The notes under the pieces are model-generated. The model saw only the letters and a list, made by a program, of their open reading frames with translations. It did not search any database and was not told where the DNA came from. Below are positions 26,100 to 42,516 of a stretch of DNA of 47,723 nt, piece after piece. The stretch covers positions 1 to 47,723 of the forward strand of contig JBAYCK010000001.1 of NCBI GenBank assembly GCA_041668805.1. Direction: 5' to 3'. Source of the DNA: Fusobacterium sp. (GTDB lineage: Bacteria > Fusobacteriota > Fusobacteriia > Fusobacteriales > Fusobacteriaceae). Each line of letters opens with the position of its first letter. Within the stretch, counting starts at the first letter, position 1. Both the position numbers and the translations under genes were made by a program.

Positions 26100-26723
26100 T
26101 TATTTTCCCCAAGTGTTAGGAGATTTATTCCATTTTAATGCTATTTCTTTTTCTTCTGTAGTAAGATATTTTTTTTCAGCAGCAAGTTCAATAAGAGTTG
26201 TAAAATTAGAAATATTTTCAAGTTTTACATTTGCTTCTTTAAAGTTTTCAATAGCTTTTGGAAATTCATATGAAAATATAGCCACTACTTCAACTTCTTT
26301 TGCTCCAGCTTCTCTAGAAGCCTTTACAGCCTTAATTGAACTTCCCCCAGTGGAAATTAAATCTTCAATAACTATTACTTTTTTTCCTTGAAAATCAGCT
26401 CCCTCAATTTGTTGCCCAGCTCCATGATCTTTTTTAGCAGAACGAATATATGCCATTGGAACATTTAATCTTTCAGCGATAAATCCAGCCCAAGGAATTC
26501 CAGCAGTTGCAGTTCCTGCGATTATATCAAAATTTTTATTTTTTAAAATATCAATAAAACCATCTACAACAATTTTTCTTTCTTCAGGATAGCCAATCAT
26601 TTTTCTATTATCACAATAAATTGGACTTTTTATTCCAGAGACAAAGGTAAATGGCTCCTTTACATTTAATTTAACAGCTCCAACAGACAATAAAGAATTT
26701 GCAACATCTTTTGCTCTACTCAT
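26100..26723 (-). CDS. pyrE: Orotate phosphoribosyltransferase
   Basis: PFT..SGIKSPIYCDNR, AGTATAGIP, VIEDLISTGGS. Confidence 0.96.
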   Translation of the reverse strand: MSRAKDVANSLLSVGAVKLNVKEPFTFVSGIKSPIYCDNRKMIGYPEERKIVVDGFIDILKNKNFDIIAGTATAGIPWAGFIAERLNVPMAYIRSAKKDHGAGQQIEGADFQGKKVIVIEDLISTGGSSIKAVKASREAGAKEVEVVAIFSYEFPKAIENFKEANVKLENISNFTTLIELAAEKKYLTTEEKEIALKWNKSPNTWGK

Positions 26724-26724
26724 A

Positions 26725-27930
26725 TTAAATCACTTCCTTTCCTATTTTAAATTCATTAAATATTCCATTATTATATACAATATTACCTCTTACAATTGTA
26801 GTAATAATATTGCCCCCTTTGTTAAAATCTTCATAAGGGGTCCAATTACATTTTGATATTATATTTTTTTTATCTATTTTTTCATTAATATTTAAATCAA
26901 CAAGCAAAATATCAGCATCATAACCTATTTCTAAACTTCCTTTTCCTTTTAGGTTAAATATTTTACTGGGATTTTCACTCATAAGTCTTTTTAAAGTTTC
27001 AATATCTAATTTTTTTTCTTTTACAGCTTGTAGCATTAATTCCAATGAATTTTCTACTCCAGGAATTCCATAAATTGTATTTTCCTTTTTTTCTTCCAAT
27101 GTATGAGGAGCATGGTCAGTTCCTATAGTATCTATAATTCCTTCATTTATAGCCTTCCAAAGGGCATTGTTATCTGCCTTTGTTTTTAACTGAGGTTTCA
27201 TAACTAAAAGAGGATTGTCTTTTAAATTTTCTTTGTTTAAAAATAAATGATGGGGGGTAACTTCCCCGTAAACTTTTAATTTTTTTTCTTTAGCTTCTCT
27301 TAAATATTCTATTTCTTCCTCAGTTGAAAGATGGCACAGATAAAGGGGAGTATTGGTTTTTTCAGATATTTCAATAGCTTTTTTCACCATTTTTCCTTCT
27401 GCATGTACAGCTACTAATTTTGAATTTTCAAATATATTTTTTAACACTTTCTCATCTTCAACAAGCATATTTCCTGTGGAAACATTCATAAAAATTTTAG
27501 TTGCCACTGAAATATTAATAGTTTTTTTAACTTCGTTACTATTATCTAATTTACTACCTCCAAAATAAAAGGCATAATCTACAAAACTTCTATTTTTAGA
27601 ATTTTCTTTTTTCTTTAGAAGTTCTTCTTTAGTTATAACATTTGGAATAGTGTTTGGCATGTCTAAAAACGTAGTTATTCCTCCTTTAGCGCAAGCCATG
27701 CTTCCAGTTGTAAAGTCTTCCTTGTAAGTAAGCCCAGGATCTCTCATATGAGTGTGAGGATCAATTATTCCAGGAAGAGCGTATTTTCCATTAGCATAAA
27801 TAATTAAATTGTCTTTATTATATTTCAAATGTATTTCGTCTTGGATTTTAGATATTTTTTCATTCTCAATTAAAATATCTTTAGAAACTGCTTTATTATT
27901 TATAAAAATCAAAGCATTTTTAATTAACAT
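26725..27930 (-). CDS. pyrC: Dihydroorotase
   Basis: PG.ID.HTHMRDPG, DMPNT, EVTPHHL, GTDHAPH; inside the pyr operon. Confidence 0.93.
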   Translation of the reverse strand: MLIKNALIFINNKAVSKDILIENEKISKIQDEIHLKYNKDNLIIYANGKYALPGIIDPHTHMRDPGLTYKEDFTTGSMACAKGGITTFLDMPNTIPNVITKEELLKKKENSKNRSFVDYAFYFGGSKLDNSNEVKKTINISVATKIFMNVSTGNMLVEDEKVLKNIFENSKLVAVHAEGKMVKKAIEISEKTNTPLYLCHLSTEEEIEYLREAKEKKLKVYGEVTPHHLFLNKENLKDNPLLVMKPQLKTKADNNALWKAINEGIIDTIGTDHAPHTLEEKKENTIYGIPGVENSLELMLQAVKEKKLDIETLKRLMSENPSKIFNLKGKGSLEIGYDADILLVDLNINEKIDKKNIISKCNWTPYEDFNKGGNIITTIVRGNIVYNNGIFNEFKIGKEVI

Positions 27931-27943
27931 TTTGTCACCTCTT

Positions 27944-28666
27944 TTAATTAATTTTTAAAATTAGCCCTTCTTCAATTTCCTTTATAATTAATTTCACTGC
28001 TTTTTTAGGATCTTCGTTTTTAGTAATTGGTCTTCCTACAACTAAGAAATCGCAACCATTTATAATAGCATTTTTAGGAGTCATAATTCTTTTTTGATCA
28101 TTTGTAGCTGCCCAAAGAGGTCTTACTCCAGGACAGACGGTTTTAAAATCATCTCCTAAGTTTTCTTTTATTAAATTAGCTTCCCAAGGGGAACAAACAA
28201 TTCCATTCATTCCAGATTCTTTAGACAAAGTAGCTAAATTCATAGCAAGTTCTTGTATGCTAGCTTTTGTTTTAAAGGTTTCTTTTATTTCTTCTTCAGA
28301 AAAACTAGTTAGAATAGTTACAGCAATAAGAAGAGAAGATTTATTTATTTTTCTGACTTCTTCAACAACTTTAGTCATCATTTTTTTACCACCAGTAGCA
28401 TGGACATTAAACATAAAAACATCCTTTTTAGCAGCAAAAATAGCAGCCATAGCAGTTGTATTTGGAATATCATGAAATTTTAAATCTAAAAATATTTTTT
28501 TATTATTATCCTTTAAATATTTAAGTATTTCTCCATTGGAATTTAAGAATAACTCAAGTCCAACTTTATAAAAAGTAGCCTCATCTTCTAATGTTTCTAT
28601 TAACCTAATAGCATCTTCCATTTTTGGAAAATCTAAAGCTATTATTAATCTGTCTTTTCCGTTCAT
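27944..28666 (-). CDS. pyrF: Orotidine-5'-phosphate decarboxylase
   Basis: ALD, KVG.EL, FLDLKFHDIPNT, PGVR, DQKR, VVGRPI. Confidence 0.97.
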   Translation of the reverse strand: MNGKDRLIIALDFPKMEDAIRLIETLEDEATFYKVGLELFLNSNGEILKYLKDNNKKIFLDLKFHDIPNTTAMAAIFAAKKDVFMFNVHATGGKKMMTKVVEEVRKINKSSLLIAVTILTSFSEEEIKETFKTKASIQELAMNLATLSKESGMNGIVCSPWEANLIKENLGDDFKTVCPGVRPLWAATNDQKRIMTPKNAIINGCDFLVVGRPITKNEDPKKAVKLIIKEIEEGLILKIN

Positions 28667-28691
28667 AATTAGTCCTCCATATTTAGTGAAA

Positions 28692-29612
28692 TTATTTTTT
28701 AAAGGCTATTCCTTTTATATCTTGCAAATTATTTAAATTGTTTTCAATACAATAATTATTTAATCCTTCTTTTATTTCAAGTGGTAAAAGTGGATTTGGA
28801 AAAATTCCAGTTCCAATGGAGACCATAGTAGCTCCAGCCATTATAAATTCAATTGCATCCTCCCAAGAGTTAATTCCACCCATTCCAATGATTGGAATAT
28901 TTATATTTTGTGCCACTTGATAAACCATTCTTACAGCAACTGGTCTAACAGCAGGGCCAGATAATCCTCCAAAAGTATTTCCTAAGATTGGAGTACCTTT
29001 TTTAATATCTATTTTCATACCAAGCAATGTATTTATCATTGAAATAGCATCAGCTCCACTTTCTTCTACAATTTTAGCAATTTCAACTATATTTGTAACA
29101 TTTGGAGAAAGTTTAACAATTAAAGGTTTGTCTAAAACTTTTTTAACTTCTTTAGTAATTTTTCCTGCAACTTCAGGATTTGCTCCAAAAGCCATTCCAC
29201 CATCTTTAACATTTGGGCAAGAAATATTTAACTCTACCATATGAATTTCTTTTATTTTATTAACCCTTTTAGCAATTTCAACATATTGTTCAAGAGTACT
29301 TCCATTTATATTTACAATTATTTTTGTATTAATGTTTTGTTTTATTAAATTTGGAATAATTTCATTTTCAAGAACATCAATTCCAGGATTTTCAAGACCA
29401 ACACAATTTAACATTCCACTGGGAGTCTCAGCTATTCTAGTTCCTAAATTTCCAGTTCTAGGTTCTAAAGTTAAACCTTTAAGTACAATTCCACCTAATT
29501 CATTTGGATTAAAATAATCTTTATATTCTAATCCAAATCCAAAACAACCAGAAGAAGTTAAAATAGGATTATTAAAGTCAATACCTAAAAAATTTACATT
29601 TAATTTTTTCAA
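28692..29612 (-). CDS. pyrD: Dihydroorotate dehydrogenase family 1B, catalytic subunit
   Basis: SGCFG, ELNISCPNV, VKLSPN, INT, GGLSGPA; TTG start. Confidence 0.96.
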   Translation of the reverse strand: MKKLNVNFLGIDFNNPILTSSGCFGFGLEYKDYFNPNELGGIVLKGLTLEPRTGNLGTRIAETPSGMLNCVGLENPGIDVLENEIIPNLIKQNINTKIIVNINGSTLEQYVEIAKRVNKIKEIHMVELNISCPNVKDGGMAFGANPEVAGKITKEVKKVLDKPLIVKLSPNVTNIVEIAKIVEESGADAISMINTLLGMKIDIKKGTPILGNTFGGLSGPAVRPVAVRMVYQVAQNINIPIIGMGGINSWEDAIEFIMAGATMVSIGTGIFPNPLLPLEIKEGLNNYCIENNLNNLQDIKGIAFKK

Positions 29613-29628
29613 TTTATATCCCCCTTAA

Positions 29629-30396
29629 TTATTTATTAATAATAATTTTGCTATTAAATACAGGACCATCTTTACATACTTTTTTCATGCCATTCTTTGT
29701 AAGAATAGAGCATCCTACACAAGCTCCAACTCCACAAGCCATTCTTTCTTCAAGGGAAACTTCACATGAAATATTTTTACTATCAGCTATATTCATAATA
29801 TGTTTCATCATTATAGATGGGCCACAAGCGTATATTTTATCAACTTTCATTTCTTTCAAAAGAGAAAGTAGAGGGACAGTTACATTCCCTTTTATTCCAA
29901 GAGAACCGTCGTCTGTTGTAATAATTGTTTTTATAGTTTCAAGATTAAAATTTTCTAAAATTTTTATGCTATTTTTATTTCTACCTCCAGAAATAAAGGT
30001 AACATTATTTTTTTTAGAAAGAATATCAATTAAGAATTTCATAGGAGCCATTCCCATTCCTCCACCAATAACAACAATATTTTCTTTTTCCACTTGAATA
30101 TCAAATCCATTTCCAAGAGGACCTTGTAAATTAATAATTTCTCCTGACTTTATATTTTTAAAGTCTTTAGTTCCCTCTCCTTTAACTTCATAATAGAATT
30201 CAATAATATTTTTATTTTTTGATATGTAGTGAAGACTAATGGGCCTTCTTAATAAAGTAGATTTATTTTTGCATTGAAGCATATAAAATTGACCAGGTTT
30301 AGCTAAAGCTATGGATTTTTCACTTTTTAATTTTAATAGGTAATAAGAATCTGAAATTTTAATATTTTCTAAAACCATGCAATCTTCTAAAAACAT
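29629..30396 (-). CDS. pyrK: Dihydroorotate dehydrogenase electron transfer subunit
   Basis: PGQF, LRRPIS, GPLGNGF, ACGP, EERMACGVGAC.GC...C.DGPVF; ATG at 30396 after GGAGG. Confidence 0.95.
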   Translation of the reverse strand: MFLEDCMVLENIKISDSYYLLKLKSEKSIALAKPGQFYMLQCKNKSTLLRRPISLHYISKNKNIIEFYYEVKGEGTKDFKNIKSGEIINLQGPLGNGFDIQVEKENIVVIGGGMGMAPMKFLIDILSKKNNVTFISGGRNKNSIKILENFNLETIKTIITTDDGSLGIKGNVTVPLLSLLKEMKVDKIYACGPSIMMKHIMNIADSKNISCEVSLEERMACGVGACVGCSILTKNGMKKVCKDGPVFNSKIIINK

Positions 30397-30415
30397 ATAT
30401 TCCTCCATATATTAA

Positions 30416-31486
30416 TTAATTAATTTTTTTTCCACAATAGTAACAGAATTGTTCATTATTTTTAATAACTACTTTATTATCTGTTTTTTCAAATTTTGTA
30501 ATGCAATTTTTGTTTGGGCAAAGACTAACATCTTTATTTATTACAGTATCATCATTTATTTTATCTGAAGAATGGATGTTAATTTTACCTAAAGCGATTC
30601 CAATCATAGCTTCTCTTATTTGAACTCCATTTTTAGCTTGTTCAAAGTATACAGCGTGTTTTGTGTCATCTAAATCGATATTAATTTCATTTACTCTAGG
30701 TAAAGGATGAAGAATTATCATATTTTCTTTGCATTTTCCTAGAATAACATTTTTTGAAATTTCAAATGAATTTTTTACTTTTTCATATAAATCTGGATTT
30801 TCAAATCTTTCCCTTTGAATTCTTGTCATATATAGAACATCAACTTCTTTTAGTATTTCTTTGTAATCAGAAAGTAGTTCATAGGGGATATTTTTTGAAT
30901 CTAATATTTTTTTAATTTCACTTGGTATTTGAATTTCTTCAGGAGCTACAAAATAAAATTTTTGTCCTGAAAATTTTGAAAGTGCTTCTGTTAAAGAATG
31001 CACTGTTCGTCCATATTTTAAATCTCCAACAAATGCAGTTGTAAGATTATCAATATTTTTTAGCTTATCTTTAATAGTATACAAATCTAGTAGAGTTTGG
31101 CTAGGGTGCTCATTAGAACCATCTCCAGCGTTAATGATTGGTATAGTTGAAATATCTTTGGCAAACTTAGCAGCCCCATCTCTAAGATGTCTCATAATGA
31201 TCACATCTGAATATCCTTCTATAACTTTTATTGTATCTCTTAGGCTTTCTCCTTTTTTCAATGAAGTTGCATCAGGGCTATCAAATCCAAGAACTTTTCC
31301 TCCTATTTTAAAACTAGCAGAAGTGAAAGAAAGTCTTGTTCTAGTTGATGGTTCAAAGAAAAGTGTTGCAATTATCTTATTTTCAATAAGTTTTTGTTGT
31401 GGGAAATTTTTTAGACTATTTGCTTTATTTAGTATTTCTAGAATTTCATTTTTACTAAAATTTTTAATAGAGATAATACTGTTCAT
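30416..31486 (-). CDS. pyrB: Aspartate carbamoyltransferase with fused C-terminal PyrI-type Zn domain
   Basis: FFEPSTRT, HPSQ, GDLK.GRT, RIQRER, HPLP; tail CPNKNCIT...CYYC. Confidence 0.95.
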   Translation of the reverse strand: MNSIISIKNFSKNEILEILNKANSLKNFPQQKLIENKIIATLFFEPSTRTRLSFTSASFKIGGKVLGFDSPDATSLKKGESLRDTIKVIEGYSDVIIMRHLRDGAAKFAKDISTIPIINAGDGSNEHPSQTLLDLYTIKDKLKNIDNLTTAFVGDLKYGRTVHSLTEALSKFSGQKFYFVAPEEIQIPSEIKKILDSKNIPYELLSDYKEILKEVDVLYMTRIQRERFENPDLYEKVKNSFEISKNVILGKCKENMIILHPLPRVNEINIDLDDTKHAVYFEQAKNGVQIREAMIGIALGKINIHSSDKINDDTVINKDVSLCPNKNCITKFEKTDNKVVIKNNEQFCYYCGKKIN

Positions 31487-31498
31487 AAATATCCTCCT

Positions 31499-31543
31499 AA
31501 AAAAAAAGAATAAAAATTACAAAATTAGTAATTTTTATTCTTT
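31499..31543 (-). terminator. Attenuator terminator of the pyr operon leader
   Basis: aaagaataaaaattac-taatttt-gtaatttttattcttt plus further Ts, directly before the pyrB RBS. Confidence 0.8.
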
Positions 31544-31633
31544 GGTAATATTGATAATATTAAAATAATTAAAAAAGGTAGAAATGAAATTCAAAAAAAA
31601 TATTTTAAAATCTTCAAATAAATATCTATTCAT
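31535..31633 (-). CDS. pyr operon leader peptide, 32 aa (MNRYLFEDFKIFFLNFISTFFNYFNIINITKE)
   Basis: GGAGGT RBS + ATG; 49/99 nt are U; stop codon lies in the terminator 5' arm. Confidence 0.75.
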   Translation of the reverse strand: MNRYLFEDFKIFFLNFISTFFNYFNIINITKE

Positions 31634-31663
31634 TTTTACCTCCGTTTTTTTTGCATTTTTACG

Positions 31664-31692
31664 ATTCTATCATATTTTGTGTTGGAAATCAA
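31664..31692 (-). promoter_or_regulatory. pyr operon promoter TTGATT-N17-TAGAAT with extended -10
   Basis: Minus strand TTGATT tccaacacaaaatatga TAGAAT. Confidence 0.65.
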
Positions 31693-33482
31693 GATAAAAC
31701 AATAAATTTTTCACATTTATTATATACTTTTTCATCAACAAGAGCTATTATTTTAATCCCCTCAGCTAAAAATTCTTCCTTTAAAACAGAAGAATTACTA
31801 TGTAAATATGAAGATACAGAAGTACTGCTATAAGGAATTAAATATTCAACTTCTTTAGTTTTATCTGGAAGCAAACTATTAGCATGGTTTAGTAAAGTAT
31901 CAATATTAACATTATCTTTAGCACTGATTTCAATAATTGTATATTTTTTCAGATTTTCTTTTATTTCTAAAAGTCTTTCCTCTGTGATTAAATCAGTTTT
32001 ATTTAAAGCTAATATAGTTGGTTTATTATCAGCTTCAAGTTCTTTTAAAACATTTTCAACAACTGAAATTTCTTGATATAAATTTTCACTTGAAACATCT
32101 ACAACATGTATTAAAACATCTGAAAAAATAACTTCCTCGAGGGTAGATTTAAAAGCTTCTATTAAATCGTGTGGTAATTTTCTAATAAAACCAACAGTAT
32201 CAATGAAGGCAACTTCTCTGTTTGAATTCAGTCTTATAACCCTTATAGTTGTATCTAAAGTAGCAAATAACATGTTTTTAGCAAGAACATTCTCTGTTTT
32301 AGCTGTATTTTCATCGCAATATTCTTTTACAATTAAATTTCTAAGAGTAGATTTTCCAACATTAGTGTAACCAACAAGAGAAATTTTACCTATTCCAGAA
32401 TTTTCTCTTTTTTCCCTTTGAGTTGTTCTAATATTTTTAATTTTTATAAGTTCTTTCTTTAAAGCAGATATTTTATCCTTAATATTTCTTCTGTCTAGTT
32501 CTAATTTTGTTTCTCCTGCTCCTCTGTTTCCAATTCCTCCACCAATTCTAGACAAAGAGGATCCAAGACCAATTAATCTAGCACTAGCATATTTTAGTTT
32601 AGCTAGTTTAATTTGTATTTTAGCTTCTTTAGATTTAGCTCTTCTGGCGAAAATTTCTAAAATTAAATAGGTTCTGTCAATGACTTTACAATTTGTGATC
32701 TCTTCTAAATTTTTGATTTGAATACCTGAAAGTTCTTCGTCGAAAATAATTAAGTTAGCTGATCTTATTTGTTTTAATTTAGATAGTTCAGAAACTTTTC
32801 CTTGTCCTATATAAAATCTTTTGTCAATTGTTTTTCCCTTTTGCAATAATATATCAACAGTTTGGATTTCACAAGCATTTCCTAGTTCTTTTAGCTCTAG
32901 AAGACTCTCCATATTTTCTCTACCAACTAAGATAGCATATTCATTATCATCTTCATCATTTACTCTATCTTTCATTTCTTTTTCAATTTCTTGTATTTTG
33001 GCTAAATAATTAAATTCTTCAACAACAGTTATATCCTTAGCTGTAAATTCTTCATAGGAAAGAACATTATCTTTCATTTTACAAAAAGCAAAGTTAATTC
33101 CGTTGATATTTCCAACATCATCGATTCCAATAGCTATAATTGAATCTAATTTAAGTTCAATAAGAGCTGATAAATCAACATCAGAAAGTTTAGATACACC
33201 ATTTGGATGTGTATGTATTAGTCTGTAACCACTAAGTTTTTTTTCTTTAATAGAGATGTTAGGGATAGAAGCACTACTATTATCTCCAATATTAGTGTCT
33301 ATAATTTTACCATTTCTATTAACAGTAATGCTAATTTCTTTGTTAATTTTTGAACTTATTTCTGAAATTTTAAGAATAAGCTCCTTTTTTAGAAAGAATT
33401 CTTTTTCAATTTTTTCTTTCAATAATTCCTCTAATTCTTTTAAAATATAGTCTTTTACTCCAACAGTATTTCCTTTTATCAT
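31689..33482 (-). CDS. hflX: GTPase HflX with N-terminal JAB/MPN-like extension
   Basis: IDRT.LILEIFARRA, G.GET.LE.DRR, GYTNVGKSTL, FATLD, DTVGFI, NK.D; ATG at 33482 after GGAGG. Confidence 0.93.
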   Translation of the reverse strand: MIKGNTVGVKDYILKELEELLKEKIEKEFFLKKELILKISEISSKINKEISITVNRNGKIIDTNIGDNSSASIPNISIKEKKLSGYRLIHTHPNGVSKLSDVDLSALIELKLDSIIAIGIDDVGNINGINFAFCKMKDNVLSYEEFTAKDITVVEEFNYLAKIQEIEKEMKDRVNDEDDNEYAILVGRENMESLLELKELGNACEIQTVDILLQKGKTIDKRFYIGQGKVSELSKLKQIRSANLIIFDEELSGIQIKNLEEITNCKVIDRTYLILEIFARRAKSKEAKIQIKLAKLKYASARLIGLGSSLSRIGGGIGNRGAGETKLELDRRNIKDKISALKKELIKIKNIRTTQREKRENSGIGKISLVGYTNVGKSTLRNLIVKEYCDENTAKTENVLAKNMLFATLDTTIRVIRLNSNREVAFIDTVGFIRKLPHDLIEAFKSTLEEVIFSDVLIHVVDVSSENLYQEISVVENVLKELEADNKPTILALNKTDLITEERLLEIKENLKKYTIIEISAKDNVNIDTLLNHANSLLPDKTKEVEYLIPYSSTSVSSYLHSNSSVLKEEFLAEGIKIIALVDEKVYNKCEKFIVLS

Positions 33483-33656
33483 ATGACCTCCAAAAAAAAT
33501 GGTTAAAATAACTTGCATTTTATTATAATATGGTGTATACATTAGTGTATATATATATGTATTAATAGTATTTTTTTTGTACACTTTATCTGTTAATAGA
33601 GGCAAACTATTAACAAGTAACTATCAATTAATATTAATTTATAGGGGGGAGATTTC

Positions 33657-34832
33657 ATGAAAAAACTTGGTTTATTACCTAAATTGATAATCGGTATAAT
33701 AATCGGTATAATTATAGGTAAGGGAAAAGTATTATTTGTTGTTAAATTACTAGCTACATTTAATGGTATTTTTGGAAACTTTTTAGGTTTTGTAATTCCA
33801 TTAATTATAATAGGATTTGTTGCTCCAGGTATTGGAGAGTTAGGATCCAATGCGGGTAAATTATTAGGTGTTGCAACTATCTTAGCATATTGTTCTACAA
33901 TAATAGCAGGATCCTTTGCATTTTTTGTAGATAGTGCAATTTTTCCTTCTTTTTTGAAGGTTGGTTCTTTGCATTTAGATGCCTCTAATCCAGAGCATGC
34001 CTTAGTAAGTGGATTCTTTAAAGTTGATATGCCACCATTGATGGGAGTAATGACAGCTTTACTAATGGCTTTTGTAATTGGGATTGGAATTACTGCCACA
34101 AAAGGTAATGCAATAAAGAATGTTATGAATGAATTTCAAACAATAGTTGAGGGTGTTATTAAAGTTATAATTATTCCATTTTTACCTCTTCATATTTGTG
34201 GAATTTTTGCTAATATGACTTATGCTGGTCAAGTTGAAACAATAATGAGTGTATTTGCAAGAGTATTTGGTATAGTAATTTTATTACACTGGTGCATTAT
34301 TTTATTGCAATATCTAGTAGCAGGAACATTAAGTGGGAAAAATCCTATTTCTTTAATAAAGAAAATGATACCTGCATACTTTACTGCAATAGGAACTCAA
34401 TCATCAGCAGCAACTATTCCAGTAACATTGCAATCAACTAAAAGCAACGGAGTAAATGATGGAGTTGCAGAATTTGCAGTACCACTATTTGCAACTATTC
34501 ACCTATCTGGATCAACTATAACATTAACAAGTTGTTCTTTAGCTGTAATGATGTTAAATGGAATGAATTATTCATTTACAATGTTCTTTGGATTTATCCT
34601 AATGTTAGGAGTAACAATGGTAGCTGCTCCTGGGGTTCCAGGTGGAGCTGTAATGGCAGCATTAGGACTATTAGATACAATGTTAGGATTCCCACCTGAA
34701 TTATTGTCTTTGATGATAGCCCTTTATTTAGCTCAAGATAGTTTTGGTACTGCTTGTAATGTAACAGGTGATGGAGCATTGGCAATAATATTAAATAAAT
34801 TTGCAGGACATACATTAAAGGAAAATAATTGA
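33657..34832 (+). CDS. Dicarboxylate/amino acid:cation symporter (DAACS, SstT-like)
   Basis: TQSSAATIPV, GVPGG and QDSFGTACNVTGDG motifs. Confidence 0.9.
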   Translation: MKKLGLLPKLIIGIIIGIIIGKGKVLFVVKLLATFNGIFGNFLGFVIPLIIIGFVAPGIGELGSNAGKLLGVATILAYCSTIIAGSFAFFVDSAIFPSFLKVGSLHLDASNPEHALVSGFFKVDMPPLMGVMTALLMAFVIGIGITATKGNAIKNVMNEFQTIVEGVIKVIIIPFLPLHICGIFANMTYAGQVETIMSVFARVFGIVILLHWCIILLQYLVAGTLSGKNPISLIKKMIPAYFTAIGTQSSAATIPVTLQSTKSNGVNDGVAEFAVPLFATIHLSGSTITLTSCSLAVMMLNGMNYSFTMFFGFILMLGVTMVAAPGVPGGAVMAALGLLDTMLGFPPELLSLMIALYLAQDSFGTACNVTGDGALAIILNKFAGHTLKENN

Positions 34833-34856
34833 GTATATTAAGTTGATAGATAATTT

Positions 34857-34884
34857 TAAAGAGCGACTGACGTCGCTCTTTTTT
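34857..34884. terminator. Bidirectional terminator
   Basis: aaagagcgac-tgac-gtcgctctttttt between convergent genes. Confidence 0.85.
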
Positions 34885-34886
34885 TA

Positions 34887-36515
34887 TTATAATCTTGAGA
34901 ATACTTCAATTATATTAAATAAATGATCTCTTATTCTTCTATAGTAGTTTAATATATCCATATATCCAGTACTTAGCATAACTGGAACACCAGCTTGAGA
35001 TGCATTTTTTAAATGATATGCTCTAGCTCGTTTAAAATCAGAAGTGATCTTATCTGCTTTTATAATTGCTTTTAAAAATCTCTCTCTATCTTTTTCTTCA
35101 AAGGAAATATTAACTTCTCTAAATAATAATTCAGTGCTTTCATTTAATTTAAATAAAATATTTCTTTCAATTTCTGTGAGTTCAATATCATTATCTTGTA
35201 TTTTTTTTAATGCTTTGGCAATTCTGAGGCAATAATCACTAATGGTTTCATATTCATCACAAATTTCTAAATTTTTTCTAGTTTCTTCGATTAGATTATT
35301 ACTTAAATCTTTATTTAAAATCATGAAGTTAACATCAGTAATTTCTTTTTGATATAAATCTAAGCTGTCTTCCACATGTTGTAATCTTTCTATTTTTTTC
35401 TCAGATATTTCTTTTTGCTTAGCATAGATTTCCTCTAAAGTGAATAACATTTCTTTAATATATTGTCCCATTGTCAATATTTCTATTTTTGTTTGTCCAA
35501 CAACAACCCCTGGTGTAGCAACCATAAGGGCATCTAATTTGGTGACTTTATTATCCATTTTACCATTATCTTTTACTAAAACTTTGAGTAGTCTGGATAA
35601 AGGCCCAACAAAAGGAGTGAAGAAAAGAACATTTAAAATATTAAACATAGTATGAGCAGTTGCTATACCAATGGTTATATTGTCTTTTGAATCAACGACT
35701 AAGTTTAAAACTTTTAAATAGTATGGAAATATTGAAATAACCCAACATACTCCAAAAATATTAATTATACTATGAGCATATGCAGCTCGTTTAGCATTTG
35801 TACTGGCATTTAAAGTTGCTAGGAAGGCAGTTATTGTAGTACCTACATTTTCACCTAAAACAAGAGCTACAGCTGTAGGATAATCAATTAATCCCTGTAG
35901 TGCAAGGGTGATGGTAATACCTAGAGTAGCGGAAGAAGATTGTACAAGAGCAGTAATACATGCTCCAACAAGAGCAGCTTTAAAAGCTCCAAAATAGGAA
36001 TCAGCTACAAATAGTTTAAATAAATTTAAAAACTCAGGCATTGATCTAATTGGTTCTAAACCATTACTCATTAGTTCTAATCCTAAAAATATAAGTCCAA
36101 ATCCCATTAAAGTAAGAGCTTTTGTTTTTGAACGATCCTTTTTTACAAAAATAAAGATAATAGCTGCAATTCCAGCTATGGGTAGCCCAAATTTACCAAG
36201 ATCTAGAACTAATAACCACCCAGTTATTGTAGTACCAATATTAGCTCCTAGAATAACTCCTAAACCTTGTTCTAATGTTAGTAAAGATGCATTAACAAAA
36301 CCAATTGTCATAACTGTACTAACAGAAGAAGACTGAACAAGCATGGTTACAAAAAATCCCATAAAAATAGCAATAAATCTGTTAGTGGTTAGAGCTGCAA
36401 GTATTTTTTTTAATTTCTTACCAGCGAGTTTTTGCATTCCACCAGACATATTGTCCATACCGTAAAGGAAAATTCCTAATCCCCCTACGACTTTAAAGAT
36501 AATATCTAAATACAT
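34887..36515 (-). CDS. Na+/Pi cotransporter (NptA family) with PhoU-like C-terminal domain
   Basis: Two QSSS motifs, GANIGTT and GENVGTT, helical PhoU-like tail. Confidence 0.92.
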   Translation of the reverse strand: MYLDIIFKVVGGLGIFLYGMDNMSGGMQKLAGKKLKKILAALTTNRFIAIFMGFFVTMLVQSSSVSTVMTIGFVNASLLTLEQGLGVILGANIGTTITGWLLVLDLGKFGLPIAGIAAIIFIFVKKDRSKTKALTLMGFGLIFLGLELMSNGLEPIRSMPEFLNLFKLFVADSYFGAFKAALVGACITALVQSSSATLGITITLALQGLIDYPTAVALVLGENVGTTITAFLATLNASTNAKRAAYAHSIINIFGVCWVISIFPYYLKVLNLVVDSKDNITIGIATAHTMFNILNVLFFTPFVGPLSRLLKVLVKDNGKMDNKVTKLDALMVATPGVVVGQTKIEILTMGQYIKEMLFTLEEIYAKQKEISEKKIERLQHVEDSLDLYQKEITDVNFMILNKDLSNNLIEETRKNLEICDEYETISDYCLRIAKALKKIQDNDIELTEIERNILFKLNESTELLFREVNISFEEKDRERFLKAIIKADKITSDFKRARAYHLKNASQAGVPVMLSTGYMDILNYYRRIRDHLFNIIEVFSRL

Positions 36516-36628
36516 TTTGCCTCCTAAATATTCAATTTTTACCCATTATAATATAGTAAGCTACTATATCCTTAAGTATAAAGATATCATATTGTAAAAA
36601 AAAAGTAAATAATTAAAATTGGTTCAAT

Positions 36629-36660
36629 AAAAAAAGAGCATAGGAAACTGCTCTTTTTAT
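36629..36660 (-). terminator. Terminator after the BI-1/YccA gene
   Basis: aaaaagagca...tgctcttttt with a T run on the minus strand. Confidence 0.7.
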
Positions 36661-36662
36661 TA

Positions 36663-37364
36663 TTATTTTTTTCTAGAAAAAATTCTTAAAAGATATAAGA
36701 ATAAATTAATAAAATCTAAGTAAAGGCTTAAGGCTGCGATTATTCCCATCTTACCCATCGCTTCTTTATCTCCAGATGAAATTTGATAAGCCATTTTTTT
36801 TATTCTATTTACATCAAAGCATATTAGAGCTGAAAAAATAACAACTCCTAAAATAGTAACCATCCAATATAAATTAGAAGCTTTAAGAAATATATTAATG
36901 ACACTCATTAAAATTAAAGATATAAGTCCTGTTTTTAAAAACCCACCATATTTACTTAAATCTTCATTAGTTGTATAACCATAAATTGCTAGAACAGTAA
37001 ACATAACAATAGTGGTTAATAAAGCATAGAAAATAACATTCAAATTATATGCAGCACCAATTAAAGAAAAAACTAATCCATTTAAAAATGAATAAAGAAA
37101 AAACATAAAGGTTGCTGTTAATTTAGAAATTTTATTGATTCCAGCTGAAAGGGCAATAACTACTACAAATTCACCAATTATTAAAGGTAAATAAAATTTA
37201 TAAATTGTCGCTAAAAAATAGTTATTAAAAAATAAAATATAAGCTGGAACAGAAAAAGTAATTAAAAGTCCAAGTACCATATAAGAAAAGGCAGATCTTA
37301 AAAGTTTGTTTTCTGTAGCGGTATCTTGATCCATAGAATAGCCATCATGATTAAAATTATACAT
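36663..37364 (-). CDS. Bax inhibitor-1/YccA family membrane protein
   Basis: About 7 TMs, YS.LNG, YGY.T..DLS and ALSLYLDFINLF motifs. Confidence 0.92.
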   Translation of the reverse strand: MYNFNHDGYSMDQDTATENKLLRSAFSYMVLGLLITFSVPAYILFFNNYFLATIYKFYLPLIIGEFVVVIALSAGINKISKLTATFMFFLYSFLNGLVFSLIGAAYNLNVIFYALLTTIVMFTVLAIYGYTTNEDLSKYGGFLKTGLISLILMSVINIFLKASNLYWMVTILGVVIFSALICFDVNRIKKMAYQISSGDKEAMGKMGIIAALSLYLDFINLFLYLLRIFSRKK

Positions 37365-37405
37365 AGATTCCTCCTAAAAAAAATTAAAATTTATCATCTA
37401 ACGTA

Positions 37406-37432
37406 TTAGACTAAAATTTATTATTTAAAGTT
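37406..37432 (-). promoter_or_regulatory. Putative sigmaE (ECF) promoter AACTT-N16-GTCTAA
   Basis: Minus strand AACTT taaataataaatttta GTCTAA, ~40 nt upstream of the BI-1 gene start. Confidence 0.65.
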
Positions 37433-37470
37433 ATAAGGAAGTTGCTTCATTTTAGAAACAACTTCCTTAT
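37433..37470 (-). terminator. Hairpin after carB
   Basis: ataaggaagttg...caacttccttat inverted repeat. Confidence 0.65.
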
Positions 37471-37503
37471 TGATATTATACTTATTTTTATTAAATAATC
37501 AAG

Positions 37504-40500
37504 TTAAATTTTTGAGATATCAAAAATATCAAGGTCTTTATCTTTGAAATGTCTTTTTTCTGTTTTTATAATAGCGTTTAATGTGTCAAAACAAGTAAGA
37601 ACTTCCACGCCATATTCAATAGCTATTCTTCTCATTTTAAATCCATCTCTTTGAGCATCATTCGCTTTAGTTGGTGTATTAACTATTAAATCTATATTAC
37701 CATGTTGTATGGCAGTTAAAATATTTGGAGTGCTTTCTCCGATTCTATTAATTTGAGAAGTTTTTATGTTGTGGTTATTAAGATACTTAGCTGTTCCAGT
37801 GGTAGCTAACAATTCACAATTTAATTCTATTAATTTTTTTGCTATTGGTAAGAATTCATCTTTATCTTTATCTCTTATTGTAAGAAGAATCCTTTTTCCA
37901 GATACTTTATTAGCTCTTTTCCCTGCAATTAATCCCTTATAGATTGCTTCTTCTATAGTATTTCCAACTCCTAAAACTTCCCCTGTAGATCTCATTTCAG
38001 GACCTAATGAAATTTCAACATCTCCAAGTTTTTCAGTTGAGAAAACAGGAACTTTTACTGCTACTAAATTAGGTTTTTTATATATTCCAGGTTTATAGCC
38101 AATTTCTTCTAATGTTTGTCCTAAAATTATTTTTGTTGCAATTTCAATTACAGGCATACCAGATATTTTAGAAATATACGGTACTGTTCTAGAAGATCTT
38201 GGGTTAACTTCAATAACGTATAATTCATTTTCATAGGCAATAAATTGAATATTCATCATTCCTTTTATTTCTAAAGCTTTAGAAATTTCTTTTGAAATTC
38301 TAAGAACTTCTTCTTCAGTTCCTTTATATAGATTTTGCTGAGGGTAGACAGTTATTGAATCACCAGAATGTACTCCAGCTCTTTCTAAATGTTCCATAAT
38401 ACCAGGAATAATTATATTTTCTCCGTCACAAATTGCATCAACCTCAAGCTCAATACCATTTAAATATTTATCGATAAGTACAGGATTTTCAGGATCTCTA
38501 TCAAATGATGATTCTAAGTATTTAACAAGATTGTATTCATCGTGGCATATTTCCATACCTTGTCCTCCTAAAACATAAGAAGGTCTAACTAGTACTGGAT
38601 AGTTAATTTCATTGGCGATTTTTATACCATTTTCAATATTCCAAACAGCTCTTCCTTTAGGTCTTTTAATGTTTAGTTCTTCCATCATTTCTTCAAACTT
38701 TTCTCTATCTTCAGCTTCATCAATTTTTTCAGCAGAAGTTCCTAGTATTTTAATATTACGACTAGATAGTTCCTTTGCAAGTTTAATTGCAGTTTGTCCT
38801 CCAAATTGAAGGATAACTCCTTCAGGTTTTTCTTTTTCAATTATATTCATAACATCTTCTATTACTAATGGCTCAAAATATAGTTTATCTGCTGTGGAAA
38901 AATCTGTTGAAACTGTTTCAGGATTGTTATTAATAATAATACTTTCAATTCCTAATTTTTTCAAAGTTTTTACAGCATGGACTGTACAATAATCAAATTC
39001 TATTCCTTGTCCAATTCTTATGGGACCAGAACCAATAACTATTATTTTTTTCTTATTAGATACTGTAACTTCGTCATATTCGTCATAAGTTGAATAGTAG
39101 TATGATGAGTCAGCTGAAAATTCTCCAGCACAAGTATCTACCATTTTATAAACTGGATAAATATTATTTTCTTTTCTTTTTCTTTCAATATCCTTTTCAG
39201 AAACATTTATAAATTCAGCTATTCCTTTATCTGAAAATCCTTTTCTTTTTAGTTTTCTTAAGTATTCAGGTTTGAAATCTTTATATTTAGTTTTCTTTAA
39301 TATTTCTTCTTGTTTTACAATCCATTCTAATTTTTCCATAAAAAATTTGTCAATACCTGTAATTTTTTGTAATTTTTCTTTTATGTATCCTCTTCTTAAC
39401 ATTTCAGCTACAATAAATAATCTTATGTCATCAGGTTTTATAACAGCATCTTTAAGTTCATCCATTGACATTTTATTAACAGATGGATGATTAAAGTTGA
39501 ATCTTCCTATTTCTAGAGAACGGATACCTTTAAGTAAAGCAGCTTCAAAATTATTTCCAATGGCCATAATCTCACCTGTAGCCATCATTTGTGTTCCTAA
39601 TTTTTTATTAGCTTTTTTAAATTTATCAAATGGCCATTTAGGAATTTTAACTACTATATAATCTAAAGTTGGTTCAAAACAGGCAAAGGTTTTTTCAGTT
39701 ACTTCGTTTTTAACTTCGTCTAATGTATAACCTAGAGAAAGTCTAGTAGCAACTCTTGCAATAGGATATCCTGTAGCCTTAGAAGCAAGAGCAGAAGATC
39801 TAGAAACCCGAGGGTTTATTTCTATAATAGCATATTGGAAAGATTTTGGGTTTAAAGCAAATTGAACATTACATCCTCCAATAACTCCTATTTCATTTAC
39901 TATTTTTAATGCAGATGTTCTAAGTATTTGATATTCTCTATCTGATAAAGTTTGAGATGGAGCAACAACAATGGAATCTCCAGTATGGATACCTACAGGG
40001 TCAATATTTTCCATGTTACACACTATAATGGAATTTCCATTTTTATCTCTGATAACCTCATATTCAATTTCTTTCCATCCTAGAATTGATTTTTCAATCA
40101 AAACTTGTCCAACTCTAGAAAGGCTAAGACCTTTAGAAAGAATATTTTCCAATTCAGTTGGGTTATGGGCAAATCCTCCCCCAGTTCCTCCAAGTGTATA
40201 AGCTGGTCTTACAACAACAGGATAACCAATTACTCTAGCAACTTCAAAACCTTCTTTTAAAGTTTCTACAATTTTACTTTCAATAATAGGTTCATCTATT
40301 TTTTCCATAGCTTCTCTAAAAAGTTCTCTATCTTCTCCCCTTTTGATTGAGTCAATGGAAGTTCCCAAAACTTGAACATTATATTTGTCTAAAATTCCAT
40401 TTTCTTTAAGTTCCACAGCCATATTTAAAGCTGTTTGACCTCCCATTCCAGCTAAAATTGAATCTGGTCTTTCTTTAGCTATTACTTTTTCAACAAATTC

Positions 40501-40710
40501 CAATGTAATTGGTTCTATATAAATTCTGTCAGCAACAGCTTTATCAGTCATTATTGTTGCAGGATTTGAATTAATTAAAACAACTTCAATCCCTTCTTTT
40601 TTTAAAGTTTCACATGCTTGTGTACCTGAATAGTCAAATTCAGCAGCTTGCCCTATTATTATTGGTCCAGAACCTATAACTAATGTTTTCTTTATATTTT
40701 TATCTATCAT
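37504..40710 (-). CDS. carB: Carbamoyl-phosphate synthase large subunit
   Basis: [17 protein letters not shown], duplicated ATP-grasp (VRPAYTLGG / VRPSYVLGG), MGS tail. Confidence 0.98.
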
Positions 40711-40775
40711 TAAAAACCTCCAATTAAAATATTAATAATTAAATTTAATAAATACTATAATAATTATTTCTATAT

Positions 40776-41834
40776 TTAAAATTTATATTCAAATAATTTT
40801 AAAAAATCATCGAATAAGTAATTATTATCTTCTGGTCCAGGACAACCTTCAGGATGATATTGAACACTCATAATATGAAATTCATCACTTTTTAATCCTT
40901 CTATAGAGTTGTCATTTAGATTTATATGAGTAACTTCCATAGAATCAGGAACCTTATCAACAACATATCCATGATTTTGTGAAGTTATATGAATTTTATT
41001 TCTCTCTAAATCTTTTACAGGATGATTACATCCTCTGTGTCCATATTTTAATTTTGTTGTTGAACCTCCTAAAGCTAAAGCAATTAGTTGTTGTCCTAAG
41101 CAAATTCCAGCTATAGGTAATTTTCCAATTATTTTTTTTATTTCAAGGATAGAATTTTCTAAGTCAGTTGGGTCCCCAGGTCCATTTGATAAGAACAAAC
41201 CATCTAAATTATATTTTAAAATTTCATCAGCTGTTGTATCCCAAGGAAAAACAGTTAAATTACAGTTTCTATTTTGGAAATTTCTAAGAATATTTCTTTT
41301 TATACCAAAATCCATAACTCCAATTTTTTTACCATATCCTTTAATTTCATAAATTTCTTTAGTACTAACTTTTGCAACTGCTGTAGAATTATTAAAATTA
41401 CTAAATCTTTCATATAATTCTTTTTCAGTTAAATCCTCAGCAGTTATAATTGCTTTCATAGCACCTTCTTCTCTAATGATTTTAACTAGTTGTCTAGTGT
41501 CGACTCCTTTAAAAGCTACAATATTATTTTGTCTTAAAAATCCGTCTAAAGTCATTTCACATCTGAAATTATTGGGAAGTTTAGCATCTTCTTTTATAAT
41601 GAATCCCTTTAGATAAGAACGGTCAGATTCCATATCTTCTAAGTTAATACCATAGTTTCCTATCATTGGATATGTCATTACAACAATTTGACCGCAATAA
41701 GACGGATCAGTTAAAAGTTCTTGATAACCTGTCATTCCAGTATTAAAAACTATTTCACCAACTGTTTCACCAAGTTCTCCAAATATTTTTCCTTCAAAAA
41801 TATTTCCATTTTCAAGAATTAATTTTCCTTTCAT
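40776..41834 (-). CDS. carA: Carbamoyl-phosphate synthase small subunit
   Basis: GEIVFNTGMTGYQE, LSNGPGDP, GICLG, SQNHG, QYHPE; ATG at 41834 after GGGAGG. Confidence 0.97.
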   Translation of the reverse strand: MKGKLILENGNIFEGKIFGELGETVGEIVFNTGMTGYQELLTDPSYCGQIVVMTYPMIGNYGINLEDMESDRSYLKGFIIKEDAKLPNNFRCEMTLDGFLRQNNIVAFKGVDTRQLVKIIREEGAMKAIITAEDLTEKELYERFSNFNNSTAVAKVSTKEIYEIKGYGKKIGVMDFGIKRNILRNFQNRNCNLTVFPWDTTADEILKYNLDGLFLSNGPGDPTDLENSILEIKKIIGKLPIAGICLGQQLIALALGGSTTKLKYGHRGCNHPVKDLERNKIHITSQNHGYVVDKVPDSMEVTHINLNDNSIEGLKSDEFHIMSVQYHPEGCPGPEDNNYLFDDFLKLFEYKF

Positions 41835-41857
41835 GTAACCTCCCAATATAATTATAT

Positions 41858-41888
41858 AAAAAAAAAGATATAACATTAAGTTATATCT
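41858..41888 (-). terminator. Attenuator terminator of the carAB leader
   Basis: agatataac-ttaat-gttatatct followed by 8 T. Confidence 0.75.
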
Positions 41889-41997
41889 GAAATTCAAAAT
41901 AAATATTAAAAAAATAAGAAAAAAATGAAAAAATAAATAAAATGTAGGATTCTTTTAAATTGCTATAATATTTAAAAAAACATCTAAATTTATACAT
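41881..41997 (-). CDS. carAB leader peptide, 38 aa (MYKFRCFFKYYSNLKESYILFIFSFFSYFFNIYFEFQI)
   Basis: AAAGGGGG RBS + ATG; 65/117 nt are U; TAA inside the terminator 5' arm. Confidence 0.72.
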   Translation of the reverse strand: MYKFRCFFKYYSNLKESYILFIFSFFSYFFNIYFEFQI

Positions 41998-42026
41998 TAT
42001 TTCCCCCTTTCAATTTCTTAAAGAGA

Positions 42027-42055
42027 AGTATACTATAAAAAAAAAATAATGTCAA
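42027..42055 (-). promoter_or_regulatory. carAB promoter TTGACA-N17-TATACT
   Basis: Near-consensus sigma70 promoter 30 nt upstream of the leader ATG. Confidence 0.75.
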
Positions 42056-42116: not shown

Positions 42117-42506
42117 ATGAAATTTAAAATAATAACAAATAACAAAAAAGTTTTTCATTTTTATAAAGAAACTGATGATGTTATTTATTTAAAAGAGGCT
42201 AATTTAACAAAAGTTTTAGCAGAAGTTTATAAATATGTCTTAAAGGGGCATAAATTATTAAGTGATCCTATAATATATAATATAGCGAATATAGAAAATC
42301 CATTTAAGTCAATATTAATTTCAAAAGATCTAGATATAAGTGGTATAAATTCTTTAAATATGATAAAAGGAGCTTTAAAAATATCGGAAAAATTACCTCA
42401 GCCAGATTTAAAAAAACATTCAAAGGATAGATTAGAAGAATACAGATATGTTGATCTTAATTTGTTAATAAATAGTATAAAAGAAGTAAAGATAAAATGC
42501 AATTAG
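42117..42506 (+). CDS. GrdX-like protein
   Basis: IITNN..V, GHKLLS.P, NPFKSILI and Y..VD..L pattern recalled for the GrdX family. Confidence 0.65.
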   Translation: MKFKIITNNKKVFHFYKETDDVIYLKEANLTKVLAEVYKYVLKGHKLLSDPIIYNIANIENPFKSILISKDLDISGINSLNMIKGALKISEKLPQPDLKKHSKDRLEEYRYVDLNLLINSIKEVKIKCN

Positions 42507-42516
42507 GTGGTGTACT

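What the first reader, a model, noticed from the sequence alone, without database searches (positions are those of the whole stretch)
31499..42055. Regulon-level pattern: two non-homologous leaders with identical geometry covering the de novo UMP pathway
Seen: both pyrimidine biosynthesis units, 10 kb apart, have the order promoter, strong RBS, 32-38 codon U-rich uORF, stop within the terminator 5' arm, U-tract, first gene. The peptides share no obvious sequence, and ordinary soluble-protein CDS sense strands here look A-rich rather than U-rich. Recurrence on exactly the two UMP-pathway operons argues against chance. Inference: the selected feature is U content and stop position rather than peptide sequence, i.e. 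a regulator-free NTP-sensing regulon.
Basis: inference. Interest (0 to 1): 0.8.

Follow-up and report, generated by a model that had tools for sequence, protein, structure and literature searches.

The report
Fusobacterial U-sensing pyrimidine attenuator pair
Both operons that make pyrimidine nucleotides in this fusobacterial genome start with a short uridine-rich reading frame that runs into a predicted transcription stop hairpin, a layout kept across the family that likely lets a trailing ribosome switch the genes on when UTP is scarce, as in E. coli pyrBI but without a known regulator protein.

Summary
Before pyrB-pyrK-pyrD-pyrF-pyrC-pyrE and before carA-carB lie a promoter-like site, a strong SD, a 32- or 38-codon U-rich ORF, a terminator hairpin overlapped by its stop, and a U9 tract. 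These are the two most U-rich of 64 SD-led upstream ORFs in the assembly. The layout recurs at 27 of 28 operon-heading pyrB and 35 of 36 pyrimidine-type carA loci in the family. In-frame stops are absent (0 in 2,136 codons), Phe is equally frequent in all frames, and no antiterminator is predicted. Ten amino-acid attenuator candidates here have a different geometry. PyrR was found in only 2 of 36 genera of the phylum. Best reading: UTP-sensitive, ribosome-coupled attenuation of the E. coli pyrBI type (untested), in a phylum classed as 'runaway'. Two corrections: stop position is not fixed (-12 to +54 nt), and the two leaders are probably diverged paralogues, not unrelated. A purE leader with the same geometry but A-rich sits behind a purine riboswitch.

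The parts
31664..31692 (-). pyrB-operon promoter-like site, TTGATT-17-TAGAAT with extended -10 TG; overlaps the hflX-like stop
   Evidence: a matching site lies before all 29 pyrB leaders
31639..31643 (-). Shine-Dalgarno GGAGG of the pyrB leader ORF
31535..31633 (-). pyrB leader ORF, 32 codons, U 0.49 (0.52 up to the stem); stop 3 nt inside the terminator 5' arm
31574..31588 (-). pyrimidine-rich stretch predicted to fold back on the leader ORF's own SD and start codon (possible extra gate, weak support)
31499..31540 (-). pyrB attenuator: 13-bp AU-rich hairpin (-10.9 kcal/mol) plus U9
30416..31486 (-). pyrB, aspartate carbamoyltransferase (51% identical to E. coli PyrB) with a C-terminal PyrI-like Zn-finger tail
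26100..30408 (-). pyrK (pyrDII), pyrD, pyrF, pyrC, pyrE; gaps of 1-25 nt, terminator at 26084-26057
42027..42055 (-). carAB promoter-like site TTGACA-17-TATACT
   Evidence: a matching site lies before 32 of 33 carA leaders
42003..42007 (-). Shine-Dalgarno GGGGG of the carA leader ORF
41881..41997 (-). carA leader ORF, 38 codons, U 0.56, the most U-rich upstream ORF in the assembly; stop 4 nt inside the terminator 5' arm
41858..41887 (-). carA attenuator: 8-bp hairpin (-6.7 kcal/mol) plus U9
37504..41834 (-). carA (41834-40776) and carB (40710-37504), carbamoyl-phosphate synthase

Best explanation
Each leader is likely a UTP-sensing, ribosome-coupled transcription attenuator of the E. coli pyrBI type: an SD-led, U-rich open frame runs to or into a predicted intrinsic terminator placed before the first gene. 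Inferred mechanism: with ample UTP, RNA polymerase crosses the U-rich 90-110 nt faster than a ribosome can load and follow, the hairpin forms and transcription stops at the U9 tract. With low UTP, polymerase slows at the U runs, the first ribosome catches up, covers the 5' arm as it reaches the stop codon, and polymerase reads into the UMP genes. The peptide is a by-product. In a lineage where polymerase normally outruns ribosomes, 'off' would be the default and U-dependent slowing would create coupling locally. Shown: layout, conservation, open frame, U bias, no predicted antiterminator, no PyrR found. Inferred: transcription start, translation of the ORF, termination, pausing, UTP as the signal. 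The two leaders probably descend from one leader of an ancestral carAB-pyrB operon.
For: Genome rank: first and second for U among 64 SD-led upstream ORFs. Of 85 leader-type terminators, 10 have an SD-led ORF reaching them; only carA, pyrB and one weak TTG-started case at a contig edge have U of 0.5 or more. Conservation in the family: 27 of 28 unit-heading pyrB and 35 of 36 pyrimidine-type carA loci. The leader follows the head of the unit: 5 pyrB genes lying directly behind carB have none while their carA has one, and 4 arginine-type carA copies have none. Open frame: 0 stops in 2,136 codons; shuffles predict 2.0 of 29 and 1.5 of 33 open frames. [quoted passage not shown] Ten amino-acid attenuator candidates in this genome stop 42-113 nt before the terminator. 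No antiterminator: 0 of 29 and 1 of 33 with z below -2, against 4 of 10 for the amino-acid leaders. U in the last 45 nt: 0.52 and 0.58 against 0.31 before gene-end terminators. E. coli pyrL has a similar start-to-stem distance (89 nt vs 93 and 110) and its ORF also crosses the hairpin. PyrR: 22 of 190 phylum genomes, 0 of 15 in this genus. Runaway signature: 109 of 241 gene-end terminators within 12 nt of the stop; Fusobacteria classed as runaway in PMC13323073 (passage).
Against: No transcript ends, ribosome data or reporter data; the only RNA runs were contigs and uninformative. In a runaway lineage a stop close to a terminator is common, so that feature alone is weak. Intergenic DNA here is itself U-rich (0.37), and untranslated parts of amino-acid leaders reach 0.40-0.64. 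U outside Phe codons is only 0.34-0.35 against 0.28 in CDS, and four-fold sites show no U excess (0.48/0.43 vs 0.45). The conserved stem base and a TTTAATAT word (17 of 29, expected 1.7; 9 of 33, expected 2.3) are more than a hairpin needs and could mark a protein site. The A-rich purE leader shows the geometry is not exclusive to U sensing. Ten Leptotrichia-like pyrB loci have neither this leader nor PyrR. Kin are not independent; 7 of 62 leaders were hand-corrected; the assembly is 79% complete.
Confidence: 0.8

Rival explanations
1. An unidentified RNA-binding protein (a PyrR stand-in, or a pathway enzyme) binds the conserved TTTAATAT word and (G)GAAT..ATTC(C) stem and controls termination; the ORF is secondary.
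For: Sequence conservation at the stem base across 14 genera and in Brachyspira; TTTAATAT above composition; only PyrR was searched for.
Against: It does not explain strong SDs and 0 in-frame stops in 2,136 codons. No antiterminator exists for a protein to switch. Shared ancestry plus a U-rich 3' arm closed by G-C pairs explains much of the motif.
Confidence: 0.08
2. The leaders sense general translation-versus-transcription speed (growth rate, stringent state), not UTP specifically; U richness only tunes pausing or keeps the RNA unstructured.
For: The same geometry occurs at purE with ordinary U (0.31). A trailing ribosome is needed whatever slows polymerase. Four-fold sites show no U excess.
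Against: The U bias is specific to the two UMP units and absent at purE; carA's last 45 nt exceed essentially all CDS windows. The E. coli precedent is UTP-specific (PMC10135430 passage).
Confidence: 0.07
3. Classical phenylalanine attenuators: ribosome stalling on Phe codons sets termination.
For: Phe is 19% of leader codons against 4.8% in CDS; here 8 of 32 and 11 of 38. The genome has many amino-acid leader peptides. A U-run/Phe uORF before a terminator was read this way for Acholeplasma aroF (PMC8632094 passage).
Against: Phe is as frequent out of frame (0.15-0.24) as in frame. The genes do not make Phe. With no antiterminator, a stalled ribosome would switch the genes off. The amino-acid leaders here have another geometry. 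The aroF unit and pheS have no such leader.
Confidence: 0.03
4. The ORFs encode functional small hydrophobic peptides, or the leaders act through Rho loading on pyrimidine-rich RNA, and the hairpin is incidental.
For: The peptides are hydrophobic; Rho is present; pyrimidine-rich RNA is a Rho target in runaway species (PMC13323073 passage).
Against: Peptides vary from 25 to 70 aa with frame changes among close relatives and match no Pfam family. C content is only 4-12%. The hairpin and U tract are the best-conserved parts.
Confidence: 0.02

Closest known systems
E. coli pyrL-pyrBI attenuator (UTP-sensitive, ribosome-coupled)
   Same: Short translated leader, U-rich stretch, intrinsic terminator reached by the ORF, no antiterminator, pyrB downstream; start-to-stem 89 nt vs 93/110 here. 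The PyrB itself is of the E. coli type (51% identity).
   Different: No evident sequence likeness (inspection). AU-rich hairpin instead of a GC-rich one. U far higher (0.5-0.57 vs 0.34). The stop usually lies in or just before the 5' arm, not 43 nt past the stem start. No TTT right after the predicted +1, so no sign of reiterative transcription. Used on carAB as well, covering the whole de novo pathway. The host is predicted to have runaway transcription.
Pseudomonas aeruginosa carA leader
   Same: Leader peptide and pyrimidine control of carAB, possibly by attenuation (as described in PMC4997734 passages; the primary paper, Kwon 1994, was not held).
   Different: That operon is also ArgR-controlled; no sequence comparison was made; here the same design also heads the pyrB operon.
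PyrR attenuation (Bacillus; one genus of this family)
   Same: Controls the same genes by leader termination.
   Different: Needs PyrR protein and its binding loop with antiterminator switching. Neither was found here: no Rfam hit in the window, RF00515 in 1 of 61 genomes, PyrR in 22 of 190.
Classical amino-acid leader-peptide attenuators (trp, his, phe, ilv)
   Same: SD-led leader ORF plus terminator; ten candidates exist in this genome.
   Different: Theirs carry control codons, stop 42-113 nt before the terminator and often have a predicted antiterminator; the sign of control is opposite.
Salmonella mgtM (ATP-sensing leader ORF)
   Same: Nucleotide run conserved, peptide not (PMC3641672 passages); closest precedent for the A-rich purE leader.
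   Different: mgtM uses alternative stem-loops without an intrinsic terminator and controls Mg/virulence genes.

Membership tests
pyrBI-type UTP-sensing coupled attenuator | SD-led leader ORF kept open up to the terminator | tested here: met
   0 in-frame stops in 2,136 codons; stops -12 to +54 from the stem
pyrBI-type UTP-sensing coupled attenuator | Intrinsic terminator (hairpin plus U tract) before the first pyr gene | tested here: met
   predicted hairpins -10.9 and -6.7 with U9; conserved
pyrBI-type UTP-sensing coupled attenuator | U-rich stretch in the ORF before the terminator | tested here: met
pyrBI-type UTP-sensing coupled attenuator | No alternative antiterminator | tested here: met
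   0 of 29 and 1 of 33 with z below -2 (simple duplex test)
pyrBI-type UTP-sensing coupled attenuator | Peptide sequence irrelevant | tested here: met
   length 25-70 codons, stem read in all three frames, Phe equal in all frames
pyrBI-type UTP-sensing coupled attenuator | UTP-dependent pausing and ribosome-dependent read-through | not testable with these tools
   only contig-level RNA data
E. coli pyrL sequence family | Sequence homology to pyrL | tested here: inconclusive
   no likeness on inspection; no formal alignment run
E. coli pyrBI/carAB reiterative transcription | Three or more T just after the start site | tested here: not met
   predicted +1 regions read AAATG (pyrB) and TAAG/AAG (carA); start sites are predicted, not mapped
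PyrR attenuator | PyrR binding loop (RF00515) | tested here: not met
PyrR attenuator | pyrR gene in the genome | tested here: not met
   7 PRTase hits, none PyrR; 0 of 15 in the genus; own assembly 79% complete
Classical Phe attenuator (pheL/pheM) | In-frame Phe control codons, stop far from the terminator, antiterminator, Phe-related target | tested here: not met

The most novel reading that the evidence does not exclude
Fusobacteriaceae run nucleotide synthesis with a matched pair of protein-free NTP gauges built on conditional coupling in a runaway-transcription cell: U-rich leaders on both UMP operons and an A-rich mirror leader in tandem with a purine riboswitch on the purE operon. In the pyr leaders the U/C-rich body also folds back over the leader's own SD, so fast polymerase blocks ribosome loading and sharpens the switch. 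The pyr leader is a mobile family that travelled with a PyrB-Zn-finger fusion into Brachyspira and Leptotrichiaceae and was replaced by PyrR in one genus.
Probability: 0.3. Interest if true: 0.75.

Novelty: new variant of a known kind. Interest (0 to 1): 0.5.

Why it matters
The pyrBI mechanism is textbook for E. coli, but runaway-transcription phyla are thought to rely on riboswitches and RNA-binding proteins. A family-wide, pathway-wide version in Fusobacteriota, beside ten amino-acid leader candidates in the same genome, would show that ribosome-coupled control works where coupling is not the default. It gives a direct test of whether nucleotide-specific slowing alone can create coupling. 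Cultured strains carry the leader (Cetobacterium somerae ATCC BAA-474, Fusobacterium perfoetens ATCC 29250). It also supplies the missing pyrimidine control for the family's genera that lack PyrR. The mechanism itself is not new, which caps the interest.

Tried and rejected
Rfam scan of the window: no match. Built-in terminator scan missed both AU-rich hairpins, so I wrote my own; the first genome run timed out and was redone. RNA evidence: 11 runs listed, all contigs; four laid on 30400-32400; they show no ends, strand or level, and the gap over the leader in two RNA runs is no evidence. Pause hairpin: leaders without the terminator fold no better than shuffles (z -1.1, -1.3), so no conserved pause hairpin is claimed. 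Synonymous-site test for U selection: four-fold sites flat; only Ile shifts to AUU (71:47 and 114:60 vs 21,202:24,209). SD fold-back: own leaders not significant (z 0.6, 0.5); swap test positive in 18 of 23 gene-genus groups but open to genome-composition bias, so kept as a lead. Phe sensing, PyrR, reiterative transcription and functional peptide were considered and rejected as above. No Phe leader was found at aroF or pheS to serve as control. Primary papers on pyrBI geometry, runaway transcription and P. aeruginosa carA were not held. Eight literature searches listed no paper describing these leaders in Fusobacteriota; subscription papers and supplements (for example attenuator prediction tables of PMC2965389 and PMC8632094) were not seen and could list them.
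Full report
Setting. The window is contig C1 of a 1.56-Mb, 79%-complete assembly, 27% GC. Its PyrB relatives in named records are Fusobacterium and Cetobacterium (57-80% identity includes Brachyspira and Leptotrichiaceae), so the host is taken to be a member of Fusobacteriaceae. On the minus strand lie carA-carB (41834-37504) and pyrB-pyrK-pyrD-pyrF-pyrC-pyrE (31486-26100), separated by an hflX-like gene, two transporters and a Bax-inhibitor-family gene. Together they encode the whole de novo UMP route.

Observation. Both leaders are as described. pyrB: promoter-like site 31692-31664, GGAGG, a 32-codon ORF (31633-31535, U 0.49), a 13-bp hairpin (31540-31508, -10.9 kcal/mol), U9, then the pyrB RBS. 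carA: promoter-like site 42055-42027, GGGGG, a 38-codon ORF (41997-41881, U 0.56), an 8-bp hairpin (41887-41867, -6.7), U9. The stops begin 3 and 4 nt inside the 5' arms. No Rfam family matches the window.

Genome-wide test. With a simple gene caller (1,446 genes) and hairpin finder (719 after merging), 85 terminators were leader-type. Ten had an SD-led ORF reaching within 16 nt of the stem: pyrB, carA, purE, two amino-acid leaders at their first (non-final) hairpin, rpmE, two tRNA-like hits, a truncated gene end, and a weak TTG-started case at a contig edge. Independently of terminators, 64 SD-led ORFs of 15-80 codons lie upstream of genes; carA's (U 0.56) and pyrB's (0.50) rank first and second. 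pyrG, upp, the uraA-like permease and the long uridine-kinase-like gene lack this leader (gene names there are my reading of the translations, with Pfam support for upp and the permease).

Relatives. I searched 61 genomes with PyrB and CarA and fetched further flanks. In the family, 33 pyrB loci were examined: 27 carry the leader, 5 lie directly behind carB and have none (their carA does), and 1 (G027) has a hairpin without an SD-led ORF. Of 36 pyrimidine-type carA loci, 35 carry it (G027 again lacks it; one truncated locus was replaced). Four arginine-type carA copies do not. Outside the family, 2 of 2 pyrB loci of genus g24 and one carA (g25) have it, one (g20) is borderline, and 10 pyrB loci of genus g17, 4 more distant pyrB and 6 carA loci do not. 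Two Brachyspira records with the same PyrB fusion have it with the same stem base. Statistics used 29 pyrB and 33 carA leaders; 55 were called automatically by SD strength without regard to the stop, 7 were corrected by hand, and 3 hand-called carA leaders were left out. Loci without the layout were excluded from these statistics, and related genomes are not independent.

What is selected. Between start and stem there are 0 in-frame stops in 890 and 1,246 codons, against 48/114 and 103/145 in the other frames; shuffling predicts 2.0 of 29 and 1.5 of 33 open frames. Length varies from 25 to 70 codons and the stem is read in all three frames. Phe is 19% of codons but 15-24% in the other frames, so it follows from U runs. 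The ORFs start A-rich (0.46-0.48) and end U-rich (last 45 nt 0.52 and 0.58, against 0.31 before 244 gene-end terminators). Against this, four-fold sites show no U excess and U outside Phe codons is only modestly raised (0.34-0.35 vs 0.28). The stop lies -12 to +48 (pyrB) and -7 to +54 (carA) from the stem: a lower bound, not a fixed place. No antiterminator is predicted (0 of 29, 1 of 33), whereas ten amino-acid leader candidates in this genome (His, Asn, Ile/Leu/Val, Arg, Trp) stop 42-113 nt upstream and 4 of 10 pass the same test.

Are the two leaders unrelated? Here they do not align (z 0.2). In 6 of 25 genomes with both, they do (z 3.3-6.3), as well as orthologues across genera (median z 2.4 and 1.8); purE leaders as control give 0 of 14. 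The stem base YATTC(C) ends 24 of 29 pyrB and 11 of 33 carA hairpins but 6 of 719 genome terminators. Several genera have one carAB-pyrB operon with one leader. The simplest reading (inference) is one ancestral leader, duplicated when the operon split. The recurrence is therefore not convergence, but both copies have been kept.

Regulators. Seven PRTase-family hits in the assembly are hpt, apt, prs, pyrE, upp, xpt and purF by my reading. A PyrR from relative G025 (found through a near-threshold RF00515 hit) matches 22 of 190 phylum genomes, in two genera only. That genus has a distant PyrB (35%). Genus g17 lacks both PyrR and the leader, so absence of PyrR does not imply the leader. Other regulators were not searched.

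Mechanism. In E. coli, abundant UTP lets polymerase run through pyrL and terminate, while low UTP causes pausing so that a ribosome blocks the hairpin (PMC10135430, passages; PMC5021804, PMC4824070 and PMC3641672, passages). E. coli pyrL, fetched here, has 89 nt from start to stem, close to 93 and 110. Fusobacteria are classed as runaway in PMC13323073 (passage), and 109 of 241 gene-end terminators here sit within 12 nt of a stop (the proxy is described in PMC7858274, passage). That weakens 'stop near a hairpin' as evidence on its own but fits the model: termination is the default and U-dependent slowing creates coupling. The weaker carA hairpin would leak, which suits a single CarA that probably also feeds arginine synthesis (one CarA match; inference). 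A possible extra layer: the U/C-rich body is predicted to fold over the leader's SD and start, above block shuffles in most leaders (median z 1.5 and 0.9) and above swapped bodies in 18 of 23 groups; it is not significant for this genome's own pair. None of the dynamic steps was observed; RNA runs were contigs only.

Purine mirror. purE (contig C71) has a purine riboswitch (RF00167, 76.9 bits) followed by an SD-led ORF that crosses a terminator. Of 30 purE loci, 17 (16 in this genus, 1 in another) show this, with 0 in-frame stops in 374 codons, U 0.31 and A 0.52 in the last 45 nt; 13 have no terminator there. A 0.52 is at the 90th percentile of coding windows and equal to gene-end flanks, so ATP sensing is only a lead.

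Novelty. It works like the pyrBI attenuator and meets every sequence-level feature of that class; it is not shown to be homologous to pyrL. A carA leader peptide with pyrimidine control is reported for P. aeruginosa (PMC4997734, passages). Eight literature searches listed nothing on these leaders in Fusobacteriota; I also read passages of PMC2965389, PMC8632094, PMC4833913, PMC6524683 and PMC9291695, not their supplements. The scan's own notes hold 21 findings with similar words in at least 19 other genomes (8 shown, unchecked) and none by place or for this group. Verdict: real, conserved, most likely UTP-sensing attenuation; a new variant of a known kind, interest 0.5.

Noticed in passing
L070 (G000:C71:3658-3945), purE leader; L090-L106: Purine riboswitch followed by an SD-led ORF (19-52 codons, U-rich start, A-rich end) that runs through an intrinsic terminator; present in 17 of 30 purE loci. 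Possible tandem riboswitch plus ATP-sensing attenuator, or a riboswitch acting through leader translation.
   Followed up: partly
window 30416-30530 (C-terminus of PyrB): PyrB carries a roughly 50-aa tail with a CPNxNC...CxYC motif matching the PyrI Zn domain (30% over 40 aa, E 1e-4 pairwise); a PyrB fused to part of PyrI, also seen in Brachyspira records.
   Followed up: partly
G000 contigs C104, C73, C157, C84, C18, C28, C67, C86, C163, C150 (also C122, C185, C55): At least ten classical amino-acid leader-peptide attenuator candidates (His, Asn with an N7 run before asnA, Ile/Leu/Val, Arg, Trp/Cys), unexpected in a phylum classed as runaway.
   Followed up: partly
L151, L154: Brachyspira records carry the same PyrB fusion and a U-rich leader with the same GGAAT..ATTCC stem base, suggesting the leader moved with the gene.
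   Followed up: partly
L068 (G025) and genus g11: One genus of the family has PyrR (20 of 22 genomes), a PyrR site and a distant PyrB, as if the operon had been replaced as a block.
   Followed up: partly
G000:C28:3300-3465 (uraA-like permease): Promoter-like start resembles the pyrB one (TGATAGAAT.GTAAAAAT) and a weak hairpin precedes U8, but there is no SD-led ORF.
   Followed up: no
G000:C41 minus strand, before pyrG: Short leader with a hairpin and U tract but no ORF; control mechanism not examined.
   Followed up: no
G000 contigs C82, C61, C79, C85, C57: Leaders that look like lysine, SAM, TPP riboswitches, a T-box and a second purine riboswitch (recalled motifs, not scanned).
   Followed up: no
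L053 and L126 (G022): Two pyrimidine-type carA copies in one genome, each with the leader.
   Followed up: no
window 42117-43158: Two ORFs (129 and 213 aa) divergent from carA with no Pfam match at E 0.001.
   Followed up: no
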